Source: Candidatus Hydrogenedens sp.
Lineage (GTDB): Bacteria > Hydrogenedentota > Hydrogenedentia > Hydrogenedentales > Hydrogenedentaceae
Assembly (NCBI GenBank): GCA_049968235.1
Contig: JBMFRC010000031.1
Coordinates: 1 to 24,838, forward strand
Length of the DNA stretch: 24,838 nucleotides
Direction of reading: 5' to 3'
The position numbers and the translations under genes were made by a program. This document shows, one piece after another, positions 1,251 to 8,584 of this stretch (positions are counted from its first letter, which is position 1; every line of letters begins with the position of its first letter). The notes under the pieces were generated by a model, which saw nothing but the letters and a program-made list of their open reading frames with translations, made no database searches and was not told the DNA's origin.

Positions 1251-2201
1251 CTAATTACATTCGGGATTAAGGGGTCCTGCCAGTTCTTTTAAGAAGAACA
1301 AATTGCCGGGGAGGGTAGGCATGAAACTGCTTGGAACCCATATATCGGGTCCATACCGAAGCGTAACCCAGAGACTCATACCCTGCCACATCATACCTCT
1401 GCCCAATGTTCCATCGGCTCCACCAATGATTTTGTCCGCTTTCAGGAAGATACCGGGACCGATTGTATTTGCGAAACAAGGCACTAATGTAGTTCTGCTT
1501 TTAAAACTGGTGATTGCATTTTGTTCAATAGTTAATGGATGTAATTTTGCCCCGAGCCGATAATCTTGTTTTTTCCATTCTTCTACGGATTTAAATTCCT
1601 CAGCAAAATGAGGTTCCCAAAAAGCAATATGAAACACTCTACCAATACCAAAAACGAGAATAAGTTTCGCACCGTTAGATTTCAACTCACCAATTTTCGT
1701 CGGATACGCAGGTAACAGTTTTTTCGTAGCGAAAAAGCGTTGCTTCTCCGGTACCGTTAATTTTCCCAGAGGTCCATAAAACGCATCTTCCATTGCATTC
1801 TGGAAAGCACCTGCGGATTTCGGCGGTAGAGTATTTCCGTTCTTATCACTCCATTCGTCCATATTAAATCCCCATACATGTTTACAATCCACTCCCCATT
1901 CTTGAAGAAAATATACTACCCATTTATACATTCCCATAGGACCAACAGGGAGAATTAGAATAACCTGTCTTCCTTCTTCCTTGCCGGCACATATTTCGTA
2001 GGCAATCCTATGACCAATTTTTACATTAAATTCTTCCAATGTTTCACACATCACAGGTTCGAAATTTTTGTGCCACCATCTCTGCCGTTCTAATACTTTT
2101 GTCGGTGGGTTCGCACAGCATCTCTCGATTTTTTTCAAATCCCATCCTCTGGGAAAGAATTGTTCAAGTAATGAACCTTTCAACGTATCCAATAAATTCA
2201 T
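1251..2201 (-). CDS. Glucosamine-6-phosphate deaminase/6-phosphogluconolactonase family protein (NagB-like, long form with about 40 aa N-terminal extension)
   Basis: 316 aa; [12 protein letters not shown]...[10 protein letters not shown] aligns with NagB PTGGTP...HVVTFNMDEY; [17 protein letters not shown] aligns with NagB GVGNDGHIAFNEP (His and Glu conserved, the Asp two residues before His is Val here). AAAGGAAAAG SD before ATG. Confidence 0.75.
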
Positions 2202-2413: not shown

Positions 2414-4450
2414 TTATTTTGGGATAGGGACTTCTTCGGGTGTGTCAAAGATAACTTCCTGCTGAGTGGGTTTTCGTAGAGTAGGCAACTCGCATTTTTC
2501 ACTGTCGCAATATAGGTCTTGTTGTTCTAATGTGTTAATTTGTTCAAATTGAATAGGTTTTAACCGGGATACCGCTTTTTCATAAATTTCTTTTGTAATC
2601 TCCTGGTAGGGAGCCTGAGGATAATTATGTTCTTCCAGAGGTAAAAAACTAATAGATTTTAATCGTGTTTCGTATAATTCGAGGATATAAGGGATATCTT
2701 TTGCCTCTTCCGGTTTGAATGTAATGGTTGCACTTACCTGATTGTCTGCCCAGTAATATTGCATTTGAGCAACATTTTCCACCTGTTCCCAGATAGAAAC
2801 ATCCCTCTTAGAACGCGAGAAATTCGGTTGATGAACAGGGAAGTAAACAACGAATGTATTATCTCCGTAAACGGATTCTTCGATACGGTAGCCTGCTTTG
2901 CGAATAGGCTCTATTAAGGGACTAGTCTTATCTACTCGTATGGTACGGTAGTAATATTCCGCATGAGGATAATGCACCCCGGGAGTAACTCCCGGAAGGA
3001 GGGATACTGTTCCACTGGGCTTGATACTGGTCTTCTTAATACTTTCCGGTATACATAACCAGCGTGAATATATTTTGTCTAATTCACAAATATATTTATA
3101 GCCTTCATCGCACCAATGAAAATGTTCTCGTTTCCCAATTCGTTCAAAATTTTCAACAATTCCTGATTGCGAAAGCCCGATACGTCGGTTGCGAAGCATG
3201 ATAGCATTTGTTCGTTCGTTATGTGTTGGGATAAGTGTTACGGTCTTCGCATACAGATAAGCGTATTTTAATGTTTTACGATATTCCTCAAAAGAAGCAT
3301 GTCTCGAAGGGAACGTTTCCACCAGATTACAAATCTCAAAAGATTCCAGACTTTGCTCTGCACAGGGATTTGTACCAGCAACATTTGCATCGAGCCAGTT
3401 GGGCCCATCTTTTAACCGCCCATAGGCGCGAGCATTTTCAAGCCAGAAATAGCCAGGTTCTCCATTAATAGAAGTCTGTTTCCCTGTTTTATGGTAACTC
3501 ATTCCTTCCCGGGCTATAATACTATTATTCGAAGCCCAACGCCATGCCATCAATCGGTCTTCGTGGAGTCGTGGGTCTTTTAATTTAAGATATTCATCAT
3601 CATCCGGAAAACCTAAAACTAATTCCGCCGTTCTACGAACACCCCCTGAAACTACACATTTTCCAATGATATTCATCAAATCCGTTATTTCTGTTGATGT
3701 GATGGGGTTCCCTATACGAGGCTGGAGGACAATGTCAATATTTTTTACACATTCTATTAAAGGACCTGGACCGGGTGCTATCCCTCCAAAGGTTCGTATA
3801 GGTGAACCCATTGGACGGATTCGTGAATAATCTATTTGTGCAGGTCGTAATCCTCTACCTGCATAGGAATTTAAAATTACACGAATCAAATCAACCCAGC
3901 CTTCTTTGGAATCTTCAACAACATGAGTATATTCACCAATTTTAGGTTGATGAATAACGATCTTATTTGCCCCTTTCGTGTCAAAAGCAACACCCACACC
4001 TAACATGGACATATCCATCAAGAAGCAAAACGGTTCCGCAAAGTCCATGTCAATATCTTCCGTAGAAACAAAGGCACAATTATTTAATGCAGCAGACCCA
4101 CGGATATAAATATAATCGGTTCCCATCATCCAGAGTCCCCGTCCCGGGGGAAGAAACTTAAATTCCCACATTAAACGGAACATTTCCTGAGCAGAGCGTT
4201 GGGCTTTATCTTTTTTCCATGGGAGTTTTAGATTTATACAATGATTCCACTGAATTGTATAACAGCCTTCTACTACTCTACGGATTGTCTCCCAGAATTC
4301 TTCAGTTCGTCCACCACTATCGGGTACTATACGTGCATAGGTTCGCTTATATGTAATATAGCCAAGCGGACCCCAATCCGGTTGTTTATCTTTGTATTGA
4401 TTTATAAATTCCTCATCCAGTTTAAACCTTTCACGAATTGGAAACAGCAT
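2414..4450 (-). CDS. rtpR: Adenosylcobalamin-dependent ribonucleoside-triphosphate reductase (class II RNR, monomeric RTPR type)
   Basis: 678 aa; N-terminus DWGPLGYITYKRTYAR...ETIRRVVEG resembles the Lactobacillus leichmannii RTPR N-terminus as I recall it (WGKLGWVTYKRTYAR...ETVKRVVEG); NPCAEQSL...ICNLVE matches the class I/II RNR thiyl-radical motif NPCGE...CNL. Strong AAGGAAGGA SD; 64-bp gap after thyX suggests thyX-rtpR operon. Confidence 0.8.
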   Translation of the reverse strand: MLFPIRERFKLDEEFINQYKDKQPDWGPLGYITYKRTYARIVPDSGGRTEEFWETIRRVVEGCYTIQWNHCINLKLPWKKDKAQRSAQEMFRLMWEFKFLPPGRGLWMMGTDYIYIRGSAALNNCAFVSTEDIDMDFAEPFCFLMDMSMLGVGVAFDTKGANKIVIHQPKIGEYTHVVEDSKEGWVDLIRVILNSYAGRGLRPAQIDYSRIRPMGSPIRTFGGIAPGPGPLIECVKNIDIVLQPRIGNPITSTEITDLMNIIGKCVVSGGVRRTAELVLGFPDDDEYLKLKDPRLHEDRLMAWRWASNNSIIAREGMSYHKTGKQTSINGEPGYFWLENARAYGRLKDGPNWLDANVAGTNPCAEQSLESFEICNLVETFPSRHASFEEYRKTLKYAYLYAKTVTLIPTHNERTNAIMLRNRRIGLSQSGIVENFERIGKREHFHWCDEGYKYICELDKIYSRWLCIPESIKKTSIKPSGTVSLLPGVTPGVHYPHAEYYYRTIRVDKTSPLIEPIRKAGYRIEESVYGDNTFVVYFPVHQPNFSRSKRDVSIWEQVENVAQMQYYWADNQVSATITFKPEEAKDIPYILELYETRLKSISFLPLEEHNYPQAPYQEITKEIYEKAVSRLKPIQFEQINTLEQQDLYCDSEKCELPTLRKPTQQEVIFDTPEEVPIPK

Positions 4451-4514: not shown

Positions 4515-5294
4515 TTAGACCTTCTTGTGTTTCGTCTTTACCCATGGAATTCCATTCACCATCTCCGTTTCATAATCCGCAAAAACATTAGGAAAATGTT
4601 TCTGGACTATGGAGAAAACATTACTAAACAGAAGTCTAATTTCCTCTTCTGCGGAAGGGTCTGTTCTCTGTTCAATAACATGGCGTAAAGTCCTTAAATT
4701 ACAGGACCAACCAATCGTTGTAGCAACTCCCATAGGAGCGATACGTCGAAGCCCAGAGGTTATTTGTTTCTTAATTTCAAAGGGATACTTGTCCAACTCG
4801 AAAAGTTCAGAAAGTTCTTTCTGCAATCGCTCCATTTCTTCCACCGTACGGACAAAAATTTCCATTCCTTTTTCATTTTCACGAATATGGGTCGGAACAT
4901 ACATCGAAAGTGTTTCCAACCGAACAAAACGAAGGGATTCCTGAGATATGGCAGTTCCAGCCCGATGCCGAACCAATTCATGTGTGATAACACGGCTTAC
5001 ATCTGCAAAGATAAAGTTTAAATACGCATGCTCCAATACACTACCATGACCTACCTCAATAATATGTTCAATATAAGTGCGATTTCCCTGACGAACTTTC
5101 GTAACATTCGGATTTAGTCCCGGCTCGAAAGAACGATAACATAATCTTCCCATTACCTCAATTATTTTTTCACTGTCACTTGGTGCGTCTGTTTCCCAGT
5201 TAGGAACACCAAGATAATCAAGATATGCCTGCAGTCCCTCATTATTTATTTTTGTTTCGCCTACAAGAAAAACTTTTGGTTCAACAGACTTCAT
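4515..5294 (-). CDS. thyX: FAD-dependent thymidylate synthase ThyX
   Basis: 259 aa; ThyX signature RHRAGTAISQES (RHR-X7-S motif); size typical of ThyX; AAGGG SD upstream. Confidence 0.9.
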   Translation of the reverse strand: MKSVEPKVFLVGETKINNEGLQAYLDYLGVPNWETDAPSDSEKIIEVMGRLCYRSFEPGLNPNVTKVRQGNRTYIEHIIEVGHGSVLEHAYLNFIFADVSRVITHELVRHRAGTAISQESLRFVRLETLSMYVPTHIRENEKGMEIFVRTVEEMERLQKELSELFELDKYPFEIKKQITSGLRRIAPMGVATTIGWSCNLRTLRHVIEQRTDPSAEEEIRLLFSNVFSIVQKHFPNVFADYETEMVNGIPWVKTKHKKV

Positions 5295-5580
5295 TTATAT
5301 ACCCTTTTTAAGTTTTGTGAACACACCCAAAATTAGTGATGTCGATTAAATTTTAAGATTTAATTATAGAAAAAATGATGATGATTATCAAGTAAAATTT
5401 CAAATTTATTTTAATTTGTTATTAGCATAATTATTATTAACTGATTTTTAATAATACAATAAACTACAAAAAATATTTATATACCTTTTGTAGAATACTT
5501 TATTTAGTATACAAATTTTTCAACATACCACATATAGCTATCGCCTGATTTTGTCCGAAATCTTATATATTCCCATTAAG

Positions 5581-5594
5581 AAAAAAAAAAAAAA
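5581..5594. repeat. Homopolymeric A14 tract in intergenic region
   Basis: Fourteen consecutive A at 5581-5594 between thyX and the acylase gene. Confidence 0.9.
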
Positions 5595-5742
5595 TAAAAT
5601 GATATTTTTGTTTATATCTAAAAAAGACAGTTTCCCGCCATTTCTGTATCCATCTGTTTATTTTAAGAAAAAAAATTTTGGTTTCATAAAAGAAAATCGA
5701 TTTGTTATCAAGTTATTGTTGACATACTATATGTAGTATTGT

Positions 5743-5772
5743 TAAAGTATATTTTATATAAAATATACTTTA
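5743..5772. repeat. 30-bp perfect palindrome TAAAGTATATTTTATATAAAATATACTTTA (candidate operator)
   Basis: Read directly: 15-bp arms with no spacer; lies just downstream of a TTGACA hexamer (5719-5724) in the divergent spacer. Confidence 0.75.
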
Positions 5773-6037
5773 TATATCCGCCATATTCCTGTATAAGAAA
5801 AAAGTGTGTCCATTTTAGTTTTATACAAAATAAACACGAGTCATTATGATTTTATTAACAAAAGGTTATTTATTGTTTGAAAGAAAGCGAAAATTTATTT
5901 TTGTTTATATTTTTTACTTCTTTTTTAATCATCTTAAATATGTTTGAATAATCACAACAACGGGTATGAAAGAGAAGAATTTGAAATTGCTTTGTAAATA
6001 GTATTATGTTTTATAAAATTTTACAAAAATTAGATGA

Positions 6038-8584
6038 ATGGAGAGTTTAACATTGAAGAGAGTATTTAAGGTTTTAGTCATTACTTTATTTATTTTTTTA
6101 TTGATTCTTAGTTTATTGCTTGGTTGTTTTTTAATTTTTTATTTTTACCCATCAGTAAAATATGCTAGGGAATATGCACCAAAGTTGTCAGGGACTGTAA
6201 ATGTTCCACATTTGCAATCAGAATTGATAATACGCCGTGATGATAACGGGGTTCCTCACATCTTTGCTCAGAACGAGGAGGATGCATGGTTTGCCTTAGG
6301 TTATGTGATGGCACAGGACCGACTTTTTCATATGGATTTTTATCGGCGATTATCTCAGGGGAGAATTTCGGAATTATTAGGACCGATAGCGGTTAAATAT
6401 GACAGGATATTAAGAACATTTCGATTGACGAAATATGGAGAAGAAGTTCTGGAAAAATATGCAGATATTTACAAACCGATACAAAAATCTTTGGATGCTT
6501 TTTTGAAGGGAATTAATACATTTATAGAGACAGAACCATTACCCCCGGAGTTTCGGATATTAGGGTATAAACCGGAGCAGTTTACAAAAGTTGATTGCCT
6601 GACTACAGCAATGATTATGCCTATTACCTTTGCGGATGGGTTAAGGCATGATTTGATGAATCTCGTATTAAAGATAAAATATCCTGATGAAGATTTTTCT
6701 ATTCTTTCTTGTGGCTATCATCGGGAACGCCCCGTTACGATTATGGAAACCATTGAGGAAGCAGAAGAATATCTAAAATCTCAAGGTCGCGACCTTTCCA
6801 ATTGGGGTTTACCAACAGCCTGTTTGCAACCCAATAAAAATCATCAGACAGCTGCCTGTTTGGAGAATTTTATGGCAACATGGCAGGATGTCGTTGAGTT
6901 TATGGGTATTCATTTAGGGAGTAATTCATGGGTTTTAGGAGGTTCCAGAACGCAATCGGGCAAACCTATTTTTGCAAATGACCCGCATATCGGGTTTTTA
7001 CAACCCTCAGTATGGTATCAGGCACATCTTGTCTATAAAGATTATGACCTCTATGGGTTTTATTTCCCTCTTATACCTGTGCCGTTGTTAGGACAGAACA
7101 CGGATTTTGCATGGGGATTGACCATGTTTGCGAATGATGACCATGATTTATATCAGGAAATATTTAAGCCGGACGACCCTACCCGGGTAAAGTATCGAGG
7201 GGATTGGGTTCCTGTTATAGAGGAAGAAGAAACTATAAAGGTGCGTTTTAGCAAATCCGTTACATTTAAGAGAAGAGTAACACCTCATGGGGTTGTTATA
7301 ACGGATATTTACAGAACATTGTTGAATTATGTCGGACCCGAACTATCTTTGTATTGGGTATGGCAACATGTTCCTTACACAAACCTGATGGCTTTCTATA
7401 AGATGTCTCATGCAAAGGATATTAATTCATTTCAAGAAGGGGTTTCTCTGGTTACATCACCGGGTGTAAATGTTTCATATACAGATAAATTAGGTAATTT
7501 TGCATGGTGGGTTGGGGCTAAAATTCCTGTGCGTCCGGACCATGTAAATCCAAAGTATGTTTTAGATGGAGCCAGTGGAAAAGATGAGGTCTTAGGTTTT
7601 GTTCCATTTGAACTAAATCCGCATTTAATTAATCCACCCAGTGGATACATTGTTACAGCAAATAATTTGTCCACCGTAAAACCTGTGGGCGATGTTAAAG
7701 AATTACAGGGATATTGGGAACCCTCAGACCGCGCTTATCGCATGGAAGAACTTTTGGAAAAACGCTCCGATTGGACTATTGAAGAATTAAGAAAAGTTCA
7801 ATTAGACCACTTTTCTGTCCCGGGTCCCGATATTGTCAAAGCAACAACGGAATTATTAATACCTGAAAAAGGGACCTTATCTCCTCTTGAGCAGAAAGCA
7901 CTCGAACAATTAAGTTCATGGGATTATCAGTTCTCAGTGGATAGTATTGGTGCTTCTATTTTCACAGTATTTTGTGATGCTATTTCCCGTAATTTGCTTT
8001 TAGATGAATTGGGGATGGACATGTTTCGTGCATATTCTACTGTGGCAGACCGCTGGTGTTTCTTCAAATATGTTATTCATGATGATACTTGTTTCTTATG
8101 GGATGACCGTTCCACGCCGGAGAAGGAGACACGAAAAGATATAATCCTCCGTTCCTTTAAGGAAGCCGTAAAGGTATTAACGAAAAAAGTGGGTAAAGAT
8201 ATCGCGGGATGGAAATGGGGCAATATTCATGTTTTAGAATTTCATCATCCTCTGGGATATGTTCCATTTTTAAGAAAATTATTTAATGTAGGACCCTTCC
8301 CCTGTCCGGGCTCTTATCATGTTATAAATAACATGCCATATGTATCGGGCACTTATAAATATAATGTGGTAGCAGGACCTTCCACACGGAGATTAATTGA
8401 TTTTGCTCAACCTGCCCGTATGCTGGAAATATTGCCCACAGGTAACTCGGGGATACCCAGTAGTAAATGGTATCATGACCAGGCAGAAAAATTTGTGCGG
8501 GGAGATTATCGCGAAGCACGTGTAACGATAGAGCAAATAGATAATCATACCGTCGAAAAACTCATATTGAAACCTAAAAAATAA
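6038..8584 (+). CDS. Penicillin amidase (penicillin/cephalosporin/AHL acylase) family Ntn-hydrolase, S45 peptidase, with N-terminal membrane anchor/signal
   Basis: 848 aa; RRDDNGVPHIFAQNEEDAWFALGYVMAQDRLFHMDFYRR is the classic penicillin acylase alpha-subunit block; GSNSWVLGGSRT contains the SN-x-W N-terminal nucleophile Ser of the beta subunit; hydrophobic N-terminus. Alternative TTG start at 6053 has a better SD (GGAGAG 7 nt upstream). Confidence 0.85.
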   Translation: MESLTLKRVFKVLVITLFIFLLILSLLLGCFLIFYFYPSVKYAREYAPKLSGTVNVPHLQSELIIRRDDNGVPHIFAQNEEDAWFALGYVMAQDRLFHMDFYRRLSQGRISELLGPIAVKYDRILRTFRLTKYGEEVLEKYADIYKPIQKSLDAFLKGINTFIETEPLPPEFRILGYKPEQFTKVDCLTTAMIMPITFADGLRHDLMNLVLKIKYPDEDFSILSCGYHRERPVTIMETIEEAEEYLKSQGRDLSNWGLPTACLQPNKNHQTAACLENFMATWQDVVEFMGIHLGSNSWVLGGSRTQSGKPIFANDPHIGFLQPSVWYQAHLVYKDYDLYGFYFPLIPVPLLGQNTDFAWGLTMFANDDHDLYQEIFKPDDPTRVKYRGDWVPVIEEEETIKVRFSKSVTFKRRVTPHGVVITDIYRTLLNYVGPELSLYWVWQHVPYTNLMAFYKMSHAKDINSFQEGVSLVTSPGVNVSYTDKLGNFAWWVGAKIPVRPDHVNPKYVLDGASGKDEVLGFVPFELNPHLINPPSGYIVTANNLSTVKPVGDVKELQGYWEPSDRAYRMEELLEKRSDWTIEELRKVQLDHFSVPGPDIVKATTELLIPEKGTLSPLEQKALEQLSSWDYQFSVDSIGASIFTVFCDAISRNLLLDELGMDMFRAYSTVADRWCFFKYVIHDDTCFLWDDRSTPEKETRKDIILRSFKEAVKVLTKKVGKDIAGWKWGNIHVLEFHHPLGYVPFLRKLFNVGPFPCPGSYHVINNMPYVSGTYKYNVVAGPSTRRLIDFAQPARMLEILPTGNSGIPSSKWYHDQAEKFVRGDYREARVTIEQIDNHTVEKLILKPKK

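What the first reader, a model, noticed from the sequence alone, without database searches (positions are those of the whole stretch)
5719..5772. Promoter-like TTGACA followed by a 30-bp perfect palindrome positioned over the putative -10/+1 (operator-over-promoter arrangement)
A consensus -35 hexamer TTGACA (5719-5724) is followed after 18 bp by TAAAGT (5743-5748), a weak -10. At that same point begins a perfect 30-bp palindrome TAAAGTATATTTTATA|TATAAAATATACTTTA (5743-5772). A perfect palindrome of this length is unlikely by chance even in AT-rich DNA. Its position resembles a dimeric repressor operator occluding the -10/transcription start. Transcription would run toward the acylase gene with a leader of about 265 nt.
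Basis: partly seen in the sequence, partly recalled or inferred. Interest (0 to 1): 0.5.

Follow-up and report, generated by a model that had tools for sequence, protein, structure and literature searches.

The report
Palindrome inside an NrdR repressor site
The 30-bp perfect palindrome is real, but it is a lineage-specific filler between two conserved binding boxes for NrdR, the ribonucleotide-reductase repressor. Those boxes belong to the neighbouring thyX–nrdJ operon, so this is an ordinary, known kind of operator and not a new repressor site for the acylase gene.

Summary
**Observation.** It is confirmed. TTGACA lies at 5719-5724. TGnTAAAGT lies 18 nt downstream. A perfect 30-bp palindrome lies at 5743-5772, far longer than chance gives. 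The string printed in the finding has two extra letters.

**Interpretation.** It is mostly wrong.
- The spacer 5295-6037 separates thyX–nrdJ (minus strand) from a penicillin-amidase-family gene (plus strand).
- Thirteen related thyX upstream regions from Hydrogenedentota-like bacteria were compared. What is conserved is not the palindrome or the TTGACA. It is 16-bp NrdR boxes.
- The distal pair is D1 (5724-5739, all six key positions) and D2 (5765-5780, degenerate), separated by a 25-bp linker.
- The proximal pair is P2 (5495-5510) and P1 (5525-5540), separated by a 14-bp linker.
- The palindrome is simply 22 nt of the distal linker plus the first half of D2.
- Published work shows that the NrdR linker is constrained in length (14-17 or 24-27 bp) but not in sequence.
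- The boxes occur even where no acylase gene is adjacent.
- The acylase gene has its own conserved upstream block at 5979-6007.

**Verdict.** This is a new member of a known kind, an NrdR operator. No independent function is shown for the palindrome. Whether TTGACA/TAAAGT fires is unresolved.

The parts
5743..5772 (.). Perfect 30-bp palindrome TAAAGTATATTTTAT|ATAAAATATACTTTA. It equals nt 4-25 of the distal NrdR linker plus D2 positions 1-8.
   Evidence: It is absent from all related loci. It folds as a 13-bp A/T hairpin of -9.9 (RNA) or -8.3 (DNA) kcal/mol with no T-run after it.
5724..5739 (.). Distal NrdR box D1, ATACTATATGTAGTAT. All six key positions are present (C4 A6 A8 T9 T11 G13).
   Evidence: a conserved island in 10 loci, with mean information 1.51 bits against 0.62 in the flanks. 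The key positions are taken from PMC13584703.
5740..5764 (.). 25-bp linker between D1 and D2. Box centres are 41 bp apart, about four helical turns.
   Evidence: Linker lengths are 24-26 bp in L003/L009, L006, L007, L010, L018 and L023. Its sequence is 50-65% identical to the closest relatives, which matches the background. The long-spacer class of 24-27 bp is described in PMC12051234.
5765..5780 (.). Distal NrdR box D2, ATACTTTATATATCCG. It is degenerate: 4 of 6 key positions, with T instead of G13 and T instead of A6.
   Evidence: In one search the orthologous position carries ATACnnnATATAG-type boxes in the other loci. Loss of G13 abolished E. coli NrdR binding in PMC13584703.
5719..5724 (+). 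TTGACA, a -35-like hexamer. Its last base is the first base of D1.
   Evidence: It is not conserved: the left flank of D1 has low information content.
5740..5748 (+). TGnTAAAGT, an extended -10-like element inside the linker.
   Evidence: 10/12 match, TG present. It is not conserved.
5525..5540 (.). Proximal NrdR box P1, ATACCACATATAGCTA (6 of 6 key positions).
5495..5510 (.). Proximal NrdR box P2, ATACTTTATTTAGTAT (5 of 6). A 14-bp linker separates it from P1, and the box centres are 30 bp apart.
   Evidence: It is the only strict box pair in an intergenic part of the window.
5363..5391 (-). Promoter-like site for thyX, TTGATA-17-TATAAT (11 of 12).
   Evidence: It is conserved in the related loci.
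4515..5294 (-). thyX, FAD-dependent thymidylate synthase. It is the first gene of the regulated operon.
2414..4450 (-). nrdJ/RTPR, an adenosylcobalamin-dependent class II ribonucleotide reductase.
   Evidence: TIGR02505, 357.8 bits against a cutoff of 340.
5979..6007 (+). Conserved upstream block of the acylase gene, AATTTGAAATTGCTTTGTAAATAGTATTAT. It is promoter- or operator-like.
   Evidence: 24 invariant columns in 6 loci, including L004, which has no thyX neighbour.
6038..8584 (+). Penicillin-amidase-family (Ntn acylase) gene.
   Evidence: PF01804, E=1e-198.

Best explanation
Bases 5719-5780 are the distal NrdR operator of the divergently transcribed thyX–nrdJ operon. thyX encodes thymidylate synthase and nrdJ encodes a B12-dependent ribonucleotide reductase.

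**Proposed mechanism.**
- An NrdR tetramer loaded with dATP and ATP would contact box D1 (5724-5739) and box D2 (5765-5780) with one dimer each.
- The boxes are separated by a 25-bp linker, four helical turns centre to centre. This is the published 'long-spacer' geometry.
- Together with the proximal pair P2/P1 (5495-5540, 14-bp linker), this would repress the operon when deoxynucleotides are plentiful.

**The palindrome.**
- It has no recognition role of its own. It occupies the linker, which is constrained only in length, and runs 8 nt into D2.
- It is specific to this lineage.
- It most likely arose by drift, or by a template-switch correction of a quasi-palindrome, in A/T-rich sequence that already carried a dyad-symmetric half-site.

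**Shown versus inferred.**
- Shown: box sequences, spacing, conservation, linkage to thyX–nrdJ, and non-conservation of the palindrome.
- Inferred: that NrdR binds here, that binding represses the operon, which promoter(s) the distal pair acts on, and how the palindrome originated.
- D2 lacks the critical G13, so the distal site may be weak in this genome.
For: **Match to the published NrdR site.**
- D1 matches all six positions that define an NrdR box.
- The D1-D2 linker of 25 bp falls in the 24-27 bp class that four tested NrdR proteins bind. The P pair's 14 bp falls in the 14-17 bp class.
- Two pairs in one regulatory region are known from Listeria nrdAB.
- The published data say the linker is limited in length and not in sequence.

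**Conservation.**
- The same two pairs, at similar distances from the thyX ATG, occur in L001, L003/L009, L005-L008, L010, L018 and L023.
- The boxes are conserved islands of 1.2-1.5 bits against 0.6-0.9 bits in their flanks.
- Correctly spaced box pairs number 1-3 per 700 nt against 0.01-0.06 expected.
- Against the closest relatives, D1 is 88% and P2 94% identical. The D linker is 50-65% identical, equal to the unconstrained background.

**Linkage to thyX–nrdJ.**
- The boxes are present where no acylase gene is adjacent (L005, L006).
- They are absent upstream of the acylase gene in L004, which lacks thyX.
- The downstream gene is a class II ribonucleotide reductase.

**The palindrome is unique to the window.** No related region has a perfect palindrome with arms longer than 10 nt, and none lies at the D linker.
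Against: - D2 in the window has T at position 13. In E. coli a G13 change in one box abolished binding, and two boxes are required. The distal pair may therefore be non-functional here.
- Neither pair overlaps the only conserved promoter-like site for thyX at 5363-5391. The P pair is about 105-150 bp and the D pair about 330-390 bp upstream of its -35. No conserved promoter was found at the pairs in either direction.
- An nrdR gene is not in the window, and its presence in the genome could not be checked.
- The minimal six-position core alone is not enriched in the window: 10 matches against 9.8 expected.
- A perfect 30-bp palindrome is a strong statistical outlier. 'Incidental' is an argument from non-conservation and not a demonstration.
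- The closest relatives available are still about 11% diverged in thyX DNA.
Confidence: 0.7

Rival explanations
1. TTGACA-18-TAAAGT is an active promoter transcribing towards the acylase gene. The palindrome is the operator of a separate dimeric repressor that occludes the -10 and the start site.
For: - The promoter-like match is good: 10 of 12 positions plus TG.
- The dyad is perfect and far beyond chance.
Against: - The palindrome and TTGACA are absent from all 13 related regions, while the adjacent boxes are conserved.
- There is no other copy of the half-site in the window: 20 loose matches against 13.2 expected, and none better than 2 mismatches outside the palindrome itself.
- No regulator gene is adjacent.
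- The acylase gene has its own conserved proximal block, which is also present where thyX is not the neighbour.
- Promoter-like sites are at chance density in this spacer.
Confidence: 0.06
2. A hybrid model. In this lineage the TTGACA/TGnTAAAGT site is a real, recently gained promoter, and it is repressed by NrdR. D1 sits in its spacer and D2 lies at about +10 to +25. This would produce an NrdR-controlled divergent transcript towards the acylase gene. The palindrome merely supplies the -10 and the initial transcribed sequence.
For: - The geometry is that of classic NrdR-repressed promoters, where boxes overlap the RNA polymerase binding site.
- The match includes a consensus -35 and an extended -10.
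Against: - The site is not conserved.
- D2 is degenerate.
- No functional link between an Ntn acylase and dNTP supply is known (own knowledge).
- In L005 and L006 nothing coding lies on that side for about 3 kb.
Confidence: 0.12
3. The palindrome acts as nucleic-acid structure. One form is an RNA hairpin in a long leader or antisense transcript. The other is a DNA cruciform that extrudes under negative supercoiling and changes the effective spacing or phase of D1 and D2.
For: - The hairpin is more stable than shuffles: z = -3.6 for RNA and -5.1 for DNA.
- The NrdR literature itself speculates that binding may sense supercoiling through the spacer.
Against: - The stem is almost pure A/T and only -8 to -10 kcal/mol.
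- No T-run follows it on either strand, so it is not an intrinsic terminator.
- No Rfam family matches.
- It is not conserved, so there is no covariation to test.
Confidence: 0.07
4. An assembly or amplification artefact, such as a fold-back chimera, created the palindrome.
For: The window appears to come from an uncultured lineage known only from metagenome assemblies.
Against: - Both flanks continue colinearly with the orthologous loci.
- The linker keeps the family-typical length of 25 bp against 24-26 bp elsewhere, so nothing was inserted or inverted on a larger scale.
Confidence: 0.02

Closest known systems
NrdR operators with long (25-26 bp) spacers, as in Streptococcus pneumoniae nrdDG and nrdHEF (PMC12051234)
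   Same: - Two 16-bp partially palindromic boxes with C4/A6/A8/T9/T11/G13.
- A linker of about 25 bp, giving four helical turns between box centres.
- A location upstream of a ribonucleotide reductase operon.
- A linker sequence that is not conserved.
   Different: - The operon here is thyX plus a class II (RTPR-type) reductase in a Hydrogenedentota-like lineage.
- The long-spacer pair is the distal one, and a short-spacer pair lies about 200 bp closer to the gene.
- Box 2 has lost G13 in this genome.
- The linker happens to be a perfect palindrome.
Listeria monocytogenes nrdAB regulatory region with proximal and distal NrdR box pairs (PMC12051234)
   Same: - Four boxes arranged as two pairs upstream of one RNR operon.
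- A weaker distal pair of unclear role.
   Different: - Both Listeria pairs have 15-16 bp spacers, and the proximal pair overlaps the mapped promoter.
- Here the spacers are 14 and 25 bp, and neither pair overlaps the conserved promoter-like site.
Classical palindromic operators of dimeric helix-turn-helix repressors over the -10/+1 (LexA or lac-type arrangement)
   Same: Perfect dyad symmetry placed over a -10-like hexamer.
   Different: - There is no conservation, no second copy and no adjacent regulator gene.
- The conserved sequence lies outside the dyad.

Membership tests
NrdR operator (NrdR box pair) | A 16-bp partially palindromic box with conserved C4, A6, A8, T9, T11 and G13 | tested here: met
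   D1 (5724-5739) and P1 (5525-5540) score 6/6 and P2 scores 5/6. The criteria come from PMC13584703.
NrdR operator (NrdR box pair) | A second box of comparable quality, since two boxes are required for binding | tested here: inconclusive
   The proximal pair meets this. Distal box D2 (5765-5780) scores only 4/6 and lacks G13. Its orthologues in L006, L007, L008, L009, L010, L018 and L023 are good boxes.
NrdR operator (NrdR box pair) | A linker of 14-17 bp or 24-27 bp, giving an integer number of helical turns between box centres | tested here: met
   The D linker is 25 bp and the P linker 14 bp. The same classes hold in the related loci.
NrdR operator (NrdR box pair) | A linker conserved in length but not in sequence | tested here: met
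   the D linker is 50-65% identical against 88% for D1. Lengths are 24-26 bp, and 14 bp in L008.
NrdR operator (NrdR box pair) | A location in the upstream region of a ribonucleotide reductase operon | tested here: met
   The site lies upstream of thyX–nrdJ (RTPR). The boxes follow thyX–nrdJ and not the acylase gene.
NrdR operator (NrdR box pair) | Overlap with, or close proximity to, the -35/-10 of the regulated promoter | tested here: inconclusive
   D1 lies in the spacer of a non-conserved plus-strand promoter-like site. The conserved thyX promoter-like site at 5363-5391 is 105-390 bp away. No transcription start data are available.
NrdR operator (NrdR box pair) | The genome encodes NrdR (Zn-ribbon plus ATP-cone), and the protein binds the site | not testable with these tools
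   No such gene lies in the 24.8-kb window. The rest of the genome is not available, and binding needs an experiment.
Sigma-70-type promoter | -35/-10 hexamers with a 16-18 nt spacer, more frequent than chance or conserved in orthologous spacers | tested here: not met
   The hexamers are present (10/12 plus TG). However, site density equals the shuffles, 8 against 8.6, and TTGACA/TAAAGT are absent from the orthologues.
Palindromic operator of a dimeric repressor | A dyad conserved in orthologous regulatory regions, or repeated at other targets | tested here: not met
   It is absent in 13 related regions. No further copy lies in the window or in the viral collection. The rest of the genome could not be searched.
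Intrinsic terminator | A G+C-rich hairpin followed by a T-run | tested here: not met
   The stem has 12 A/T pairs and 1 G/C pair, and no T-run follows it on either strand.

The most novel reading that the evidence does not exclude
The perfect A/T palindrome in the four-turn linker is a lineage-specific, supercoiling-sensitive element. By extruding as a cruciform, or by giving the linker unusual flexibility, it would change the distance and phase between D1 and the weakened D2. This would couple NrdR occupancy at the distal site, or firing of the overlapping TTGACA/TAAAGT promoter, to DNA topology.
Probability: 0.05. Interest if true: 0.6.

Novelty: new member of a known kind. Interest (0 to 1): 0.3.

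Why it matters
- **Reassignment.** A striking sequence oddity is reassigned to a well-understood system. This prevents a false annotation of a new operator and repressor for an acylase gene.
- **Modest positive result.** An uncultured phylum-level lineage (Hydrogenedentota-like) keeps a multi-pair NrdR architecture upstream of thyX–nrdJ. A long-spacer (24-26 bp) distal pair and a short-spacer (14-16 bp) proximal pair sit in the same regulatory region.
- **Use as a test case.** This natural side-by-side arrangement of the two spacer classes could be used to test the proposed helical-phase rule. It could also probe the unclear role of distal NrdR pairs.
- **Natural linker variant.** The palindrome offers a natural 'linker variant' for testing whether linker sequence really is irrelevant.

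Tried and rejected
- **Rfam.** Gathering thresholds on the whole window and E<=1 on 5200-6100 gave no RNA family.
- **Plasmid collection.** A blastn search with the spacer found no match.
- **Exact-protein look-ups.** The acylase and ThyX proteins are not on record.
- **Viral contigs.** An exact search for the 28-nt palindrome core found nothing.
- **Half-site search in the window.** Up to 3 mismatches gave chance level and no second site.
- **Minimal NrdR core CNANATNTNG.** It is not enriched in the window, 10 matches against 9.8 expected. The argument therefore rests on pairing, spacing and conservation and not on motif counts.
- **Conserved promoter at the D or P pair.** I compared the aligned regions by eye in both directions and found no promoter at a consistent offset.
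- **Helical phasing between the D1 and P1 centres.** The distances run from 171 to 250 bp, with no common phase. A looping model therefore has no support.
- **A better alternative partner box for D1.** I looked 30-32 or 40-42 bp to either side and found none (and direct reading).
- **ORF 5551-5736 (61 aa) in the spacer.** It has no family hit and lies in the 62%-identical, indel-rich stretch. I rejected it as a gene.
- **Other strict-spacing 'pairs' in the window** (about 14036, 14975 and 22092). These are 5/6 boxes inside coding sequence, consistent with chance given 80 loose boxes.

Full report
**1. The observation**

Direct reading and a script confirm the elements.
- TTGACA lies at 5719-5724 and TAAAGT at 5743-5748.
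- A perfect palindrome lies at 5743-5772: TAAAGTATATTTTAT|ATAAAATATACTTTA, 15+15 nt.
- The string printed in the finding has 32 letters, two too many. Its coordinates are right.
- The promoter scan lists TTGACA-18-TAAAGT as a 10/12 match with a TG before the -10.

The palindrome is a real outlier.
- The next-longest perfect palindromes in the window are 14 bp.
- None of 2000 first-order Markov simulations of the A/T-rich spacer reached arms of 15 nt.

The promoter match has no such support. The region 5200-6200 holds 8 promoter-like sites against 8.6 expected.

**2. Context**

The palindrome lies in a 743-bp divergent spacer, 5295-6037, which is 23-29% G+C.
- To the left, on the minus strand, are thyX (4515-5294) and an adenosylcobalamin-dependent class II ribonucleotide reductase of the RTPR type (2414-4450).
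- To the right, on the plus strand, is a penicillin-amidase-family gene (6038-8584).
- No transcription factor gene is adjacent.
- No Rfam family matches the window or the spacer.

**3. Related sequences**

- The acylase protein retrieved four MAG loci, L001-L004.
- ThyX retrieved eight metagenome loci, L005-L012.
- ThyX homologues retrieved further contigs, L013-L023.
- Named relatives are Candidatus Hydrogenedentes/Hydrogenedens.
- The closest relatives, L005 and L006, have ThyX proteins 97% identical to the window's. Their thyX DNA is 89% identical to it.

**4. What is conserved**

I scanned every thyX upstream region for the six positions that define an NrdR box: C4, A6, A8, T9, T11 and G13 (PMC13584703). 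The scan shows the same architecture everywhere.

*Proximal pair.*
- Box centres lie near -208 and -238 relative to the thyX ATG, with a 14-16 bp linker.
- In the window these are P2 (5495-5510, ATACTTTATTTAGTAT) and P1 (5525-5540, ATACCACATATAGCTA).

*Distal pair.*
- It lies about 200 bp further upstream.
- The linker is 24-26 bp in L003/L009, L006, L007, L010, L018 and L023, and 14 bp in L008.
- In the window these are D1 (5724-5739, ATACTATATGTAGTAT, 6/6), a 25-bp linker (5740-5764), and D2 (5765-5780, ATACTTTATATATCCG).
- D2 is degenerate at 4/6. It has T at position 13, where all better-preserved orthologues have G.

*Support for the boxes.*
- Anchored comparison shows the boxes as conserved islands of 1.2-1.5 bits per column. 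The flanks and linkers carry 0.6-0.9 bits.
- Correctly spaced pairs occur 1-3 times per 700 nt against 0.01-0.06 expected.
- Against L005 and L006, D1 is 88% and P2 94% identical. The D linker is 50-65% identical, no better than the 62-63% of the unconstrained stretch between the pairs.

**5. Where the palindrome and the hexamers sit**

- The palindrome covers nt 4-25 of the distal linker plus D2 positions 1-8 (ATACTTTA). Its left arm is the mirror image of that half-site plus seven linker bases.
- TTGACA ends on the first base of D1. TAAAGT lies in the linker.
- None of these three features exists in any related locus. The left flank of D1 and the linker are not conserved.
- No related upstream region has a perfect palindrome with arms longer than 10 nt, and none lies at the D linker.
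- The palindrome pieces are absent from all fetched loci and from the viral collection.
- The linker nevertheless keeps the family-typical length. This argues against an insertion or an assembly fold-back.

**6. Which gene the site belongs to**

- The boxes are present upstream of thyX in L005 and L006. There the other side has no acylase gene and no ORF longer than 90 aa for about 3 kb.
- The boxes are also present in L018 and L023, where the divergent genes are a nucleoside transporter and a URO-D gene.
- They are absent upstream of the acylase gene in L004, which has a different neighbour.
- The acylase gene carries its own conserved block at 5979-6007. It has 24 invariant columns across six loci, including L004.
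- A leader of about 265 nt from the finder's promoter is therefore unnecessary and unsupported.

**7. Comparison with what is known**

Published work on NrdR establishes the following.
- The binding site is two 16-bp boxes, and both are required for binding.
- Four NrdR proteins bind well with 14-17 bp spacers and again with 24-27 bp spacers, which add one helical turn.
- Long spacers are native in most streptococci.
- Listeria nrdAB has a proximal and a distal pair.
- The linker is constrained in length and not in sequence.

These points come from PMC12051234 and PMC13584703.

The window matches on box sequence, pairing, spacing, an unconstrained linker and a location upstream of an RNR operon. 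Four things remain open.
- D2's missing G13 is a critical position in E. coli.
- The conserved thyX promoter-like site, TTGATA-17-TATAAT at 5363-5391, does not overlap either pair.
- I found no conserved promoter at the pairs.
- The presence of nrdR in this genome could not be tested.

**8. Mechanism proposed**

dATP/ATP-loaded NrdR tetramers would bind the proximal pair and, more weakly, the distal pair, and repress thyX–nrdJ. The palindrome is linker sequence with no recognition role. It probably arose by drift or by template-switch correction in A/T-rich, partly dyad-symmetric DNA.

The rivals are ranked below this explanation.
- An NrdR-repressed, lineage-specific divergent promoter: 0.12.
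- A structural role as a cruciform or hairpin: 0.07. The hairpin is -8 to -10 kcal/mol with no T-run after it.
- An assembly artefact: 0.02.

**9. Verdict**

- The thing is a new member of a known kind, an NrdR operator.
- The palindrome is an unexplained but probably incidental embellishment.
- Interest is modest. Its main value is the natural juxtaposition of short- and long-spacer NrdR pairs in an uncultured lineage.

Noticed in passing
window 5410-5438: The block TTTAATTTGTTATTAGCATAATTATTATT lies about 20-45 bp upstream of the -35 of the thyX promoter-like site. It is almost invariant in all close relatives (L001, L003/L009, L005-L008, L010, L013), although it is not an NrdR box. It may be an UP element or the site of a second regulator.
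   Followed up: partly
window 5481-5496: A third, weak NrdR-like box (ATACCTTTTGTAGAAT, 4/6) overlaps P2 by 2 nt. As a result GTATAC-like hexamers recur at 14-bp intervals. The same layout occurs in L001 and L005-L007.
   Followed up: partly
window 5324-5339; L018 and L023 at about -70 to -37 from the thyX ATG: The more distant relatives L018 and L023 have additional NrdR boxes between the promoter-like site and the thyX start codon. L018 has a full pair with a 14-bp linker. The window has only a single 5/6 look-alike there (CACCCAAAATTAGTGA), next to a conserved TTTTGGGCATG motif.
   Followed up: partly
window 5626-5639, minus strand: This is the only terminator-like hairpin in the spacer (GGCGGGAAACTGTC followed by TTTTTT), against 0.1 expected. 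It lies between the distal and proximal box pairs and points towards thyX. The hairpin did not look conserved in relatives.
   Followed up: partly
window 6038-6055: The acylase gene probably starts at TTG 6053 and not ATG 6038. GGAGAG at 6040-6045 aligns with the GGAGGG ribosome-binding site of the relatives, and the conserved N-terminus (K-R/K-V-x-K) begins after 6053.
   Followed up: partly
L005 1-3000 and L006 1-3000: In the two closest relatives, about 3 kb upstream of thyX holds no ORF longer than 90 aa and no acylase gene. In L006 the stretch has G+C-rich, GGGAC/GATG-rich repetitive-looking sequence. Tandem Repeats Finder reported only one short 17-nt repeat.
   Followed up: partly
window 1251-2201, minus strand: A 316-aa ORF downstream of nrdJ has no Pfam hit. 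It has only weak, sub-threshold similarity to glucosamine-6-phosphate deaminase (NagB) models. The next gene is a PIG-L-family deacetylase.
   Followed up: partly
L018 1-647: In the 5.1-Mb relative, the gene divergent from thyX is a NupC-type nucleoside transporter, and the distal NrdR pair lies between the two. A nucleotide-related divergent gene there might also be under NrdR control.
   Followed up: no
L003 (CAZJTZ010000023.1): The record is labelled 'uncultured Nitrospirales bacterium'. Its thyX–acylase locus is nevertheless syntenic with the window and near-identical to L009, and named ThyX relatives are Hydrogenedentes. The taxonomic label may be a binning error.
   Followed up: no
window 5580-5594 and 5666-5675: Long homopolymer A runs (14 and 8 nt) lie in the spacer, each preceded by TTAAG. 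They form an exact 13-nt direct repeat, TTAAGAAAAAAAA, 87 bp apart.
   Followed up: no
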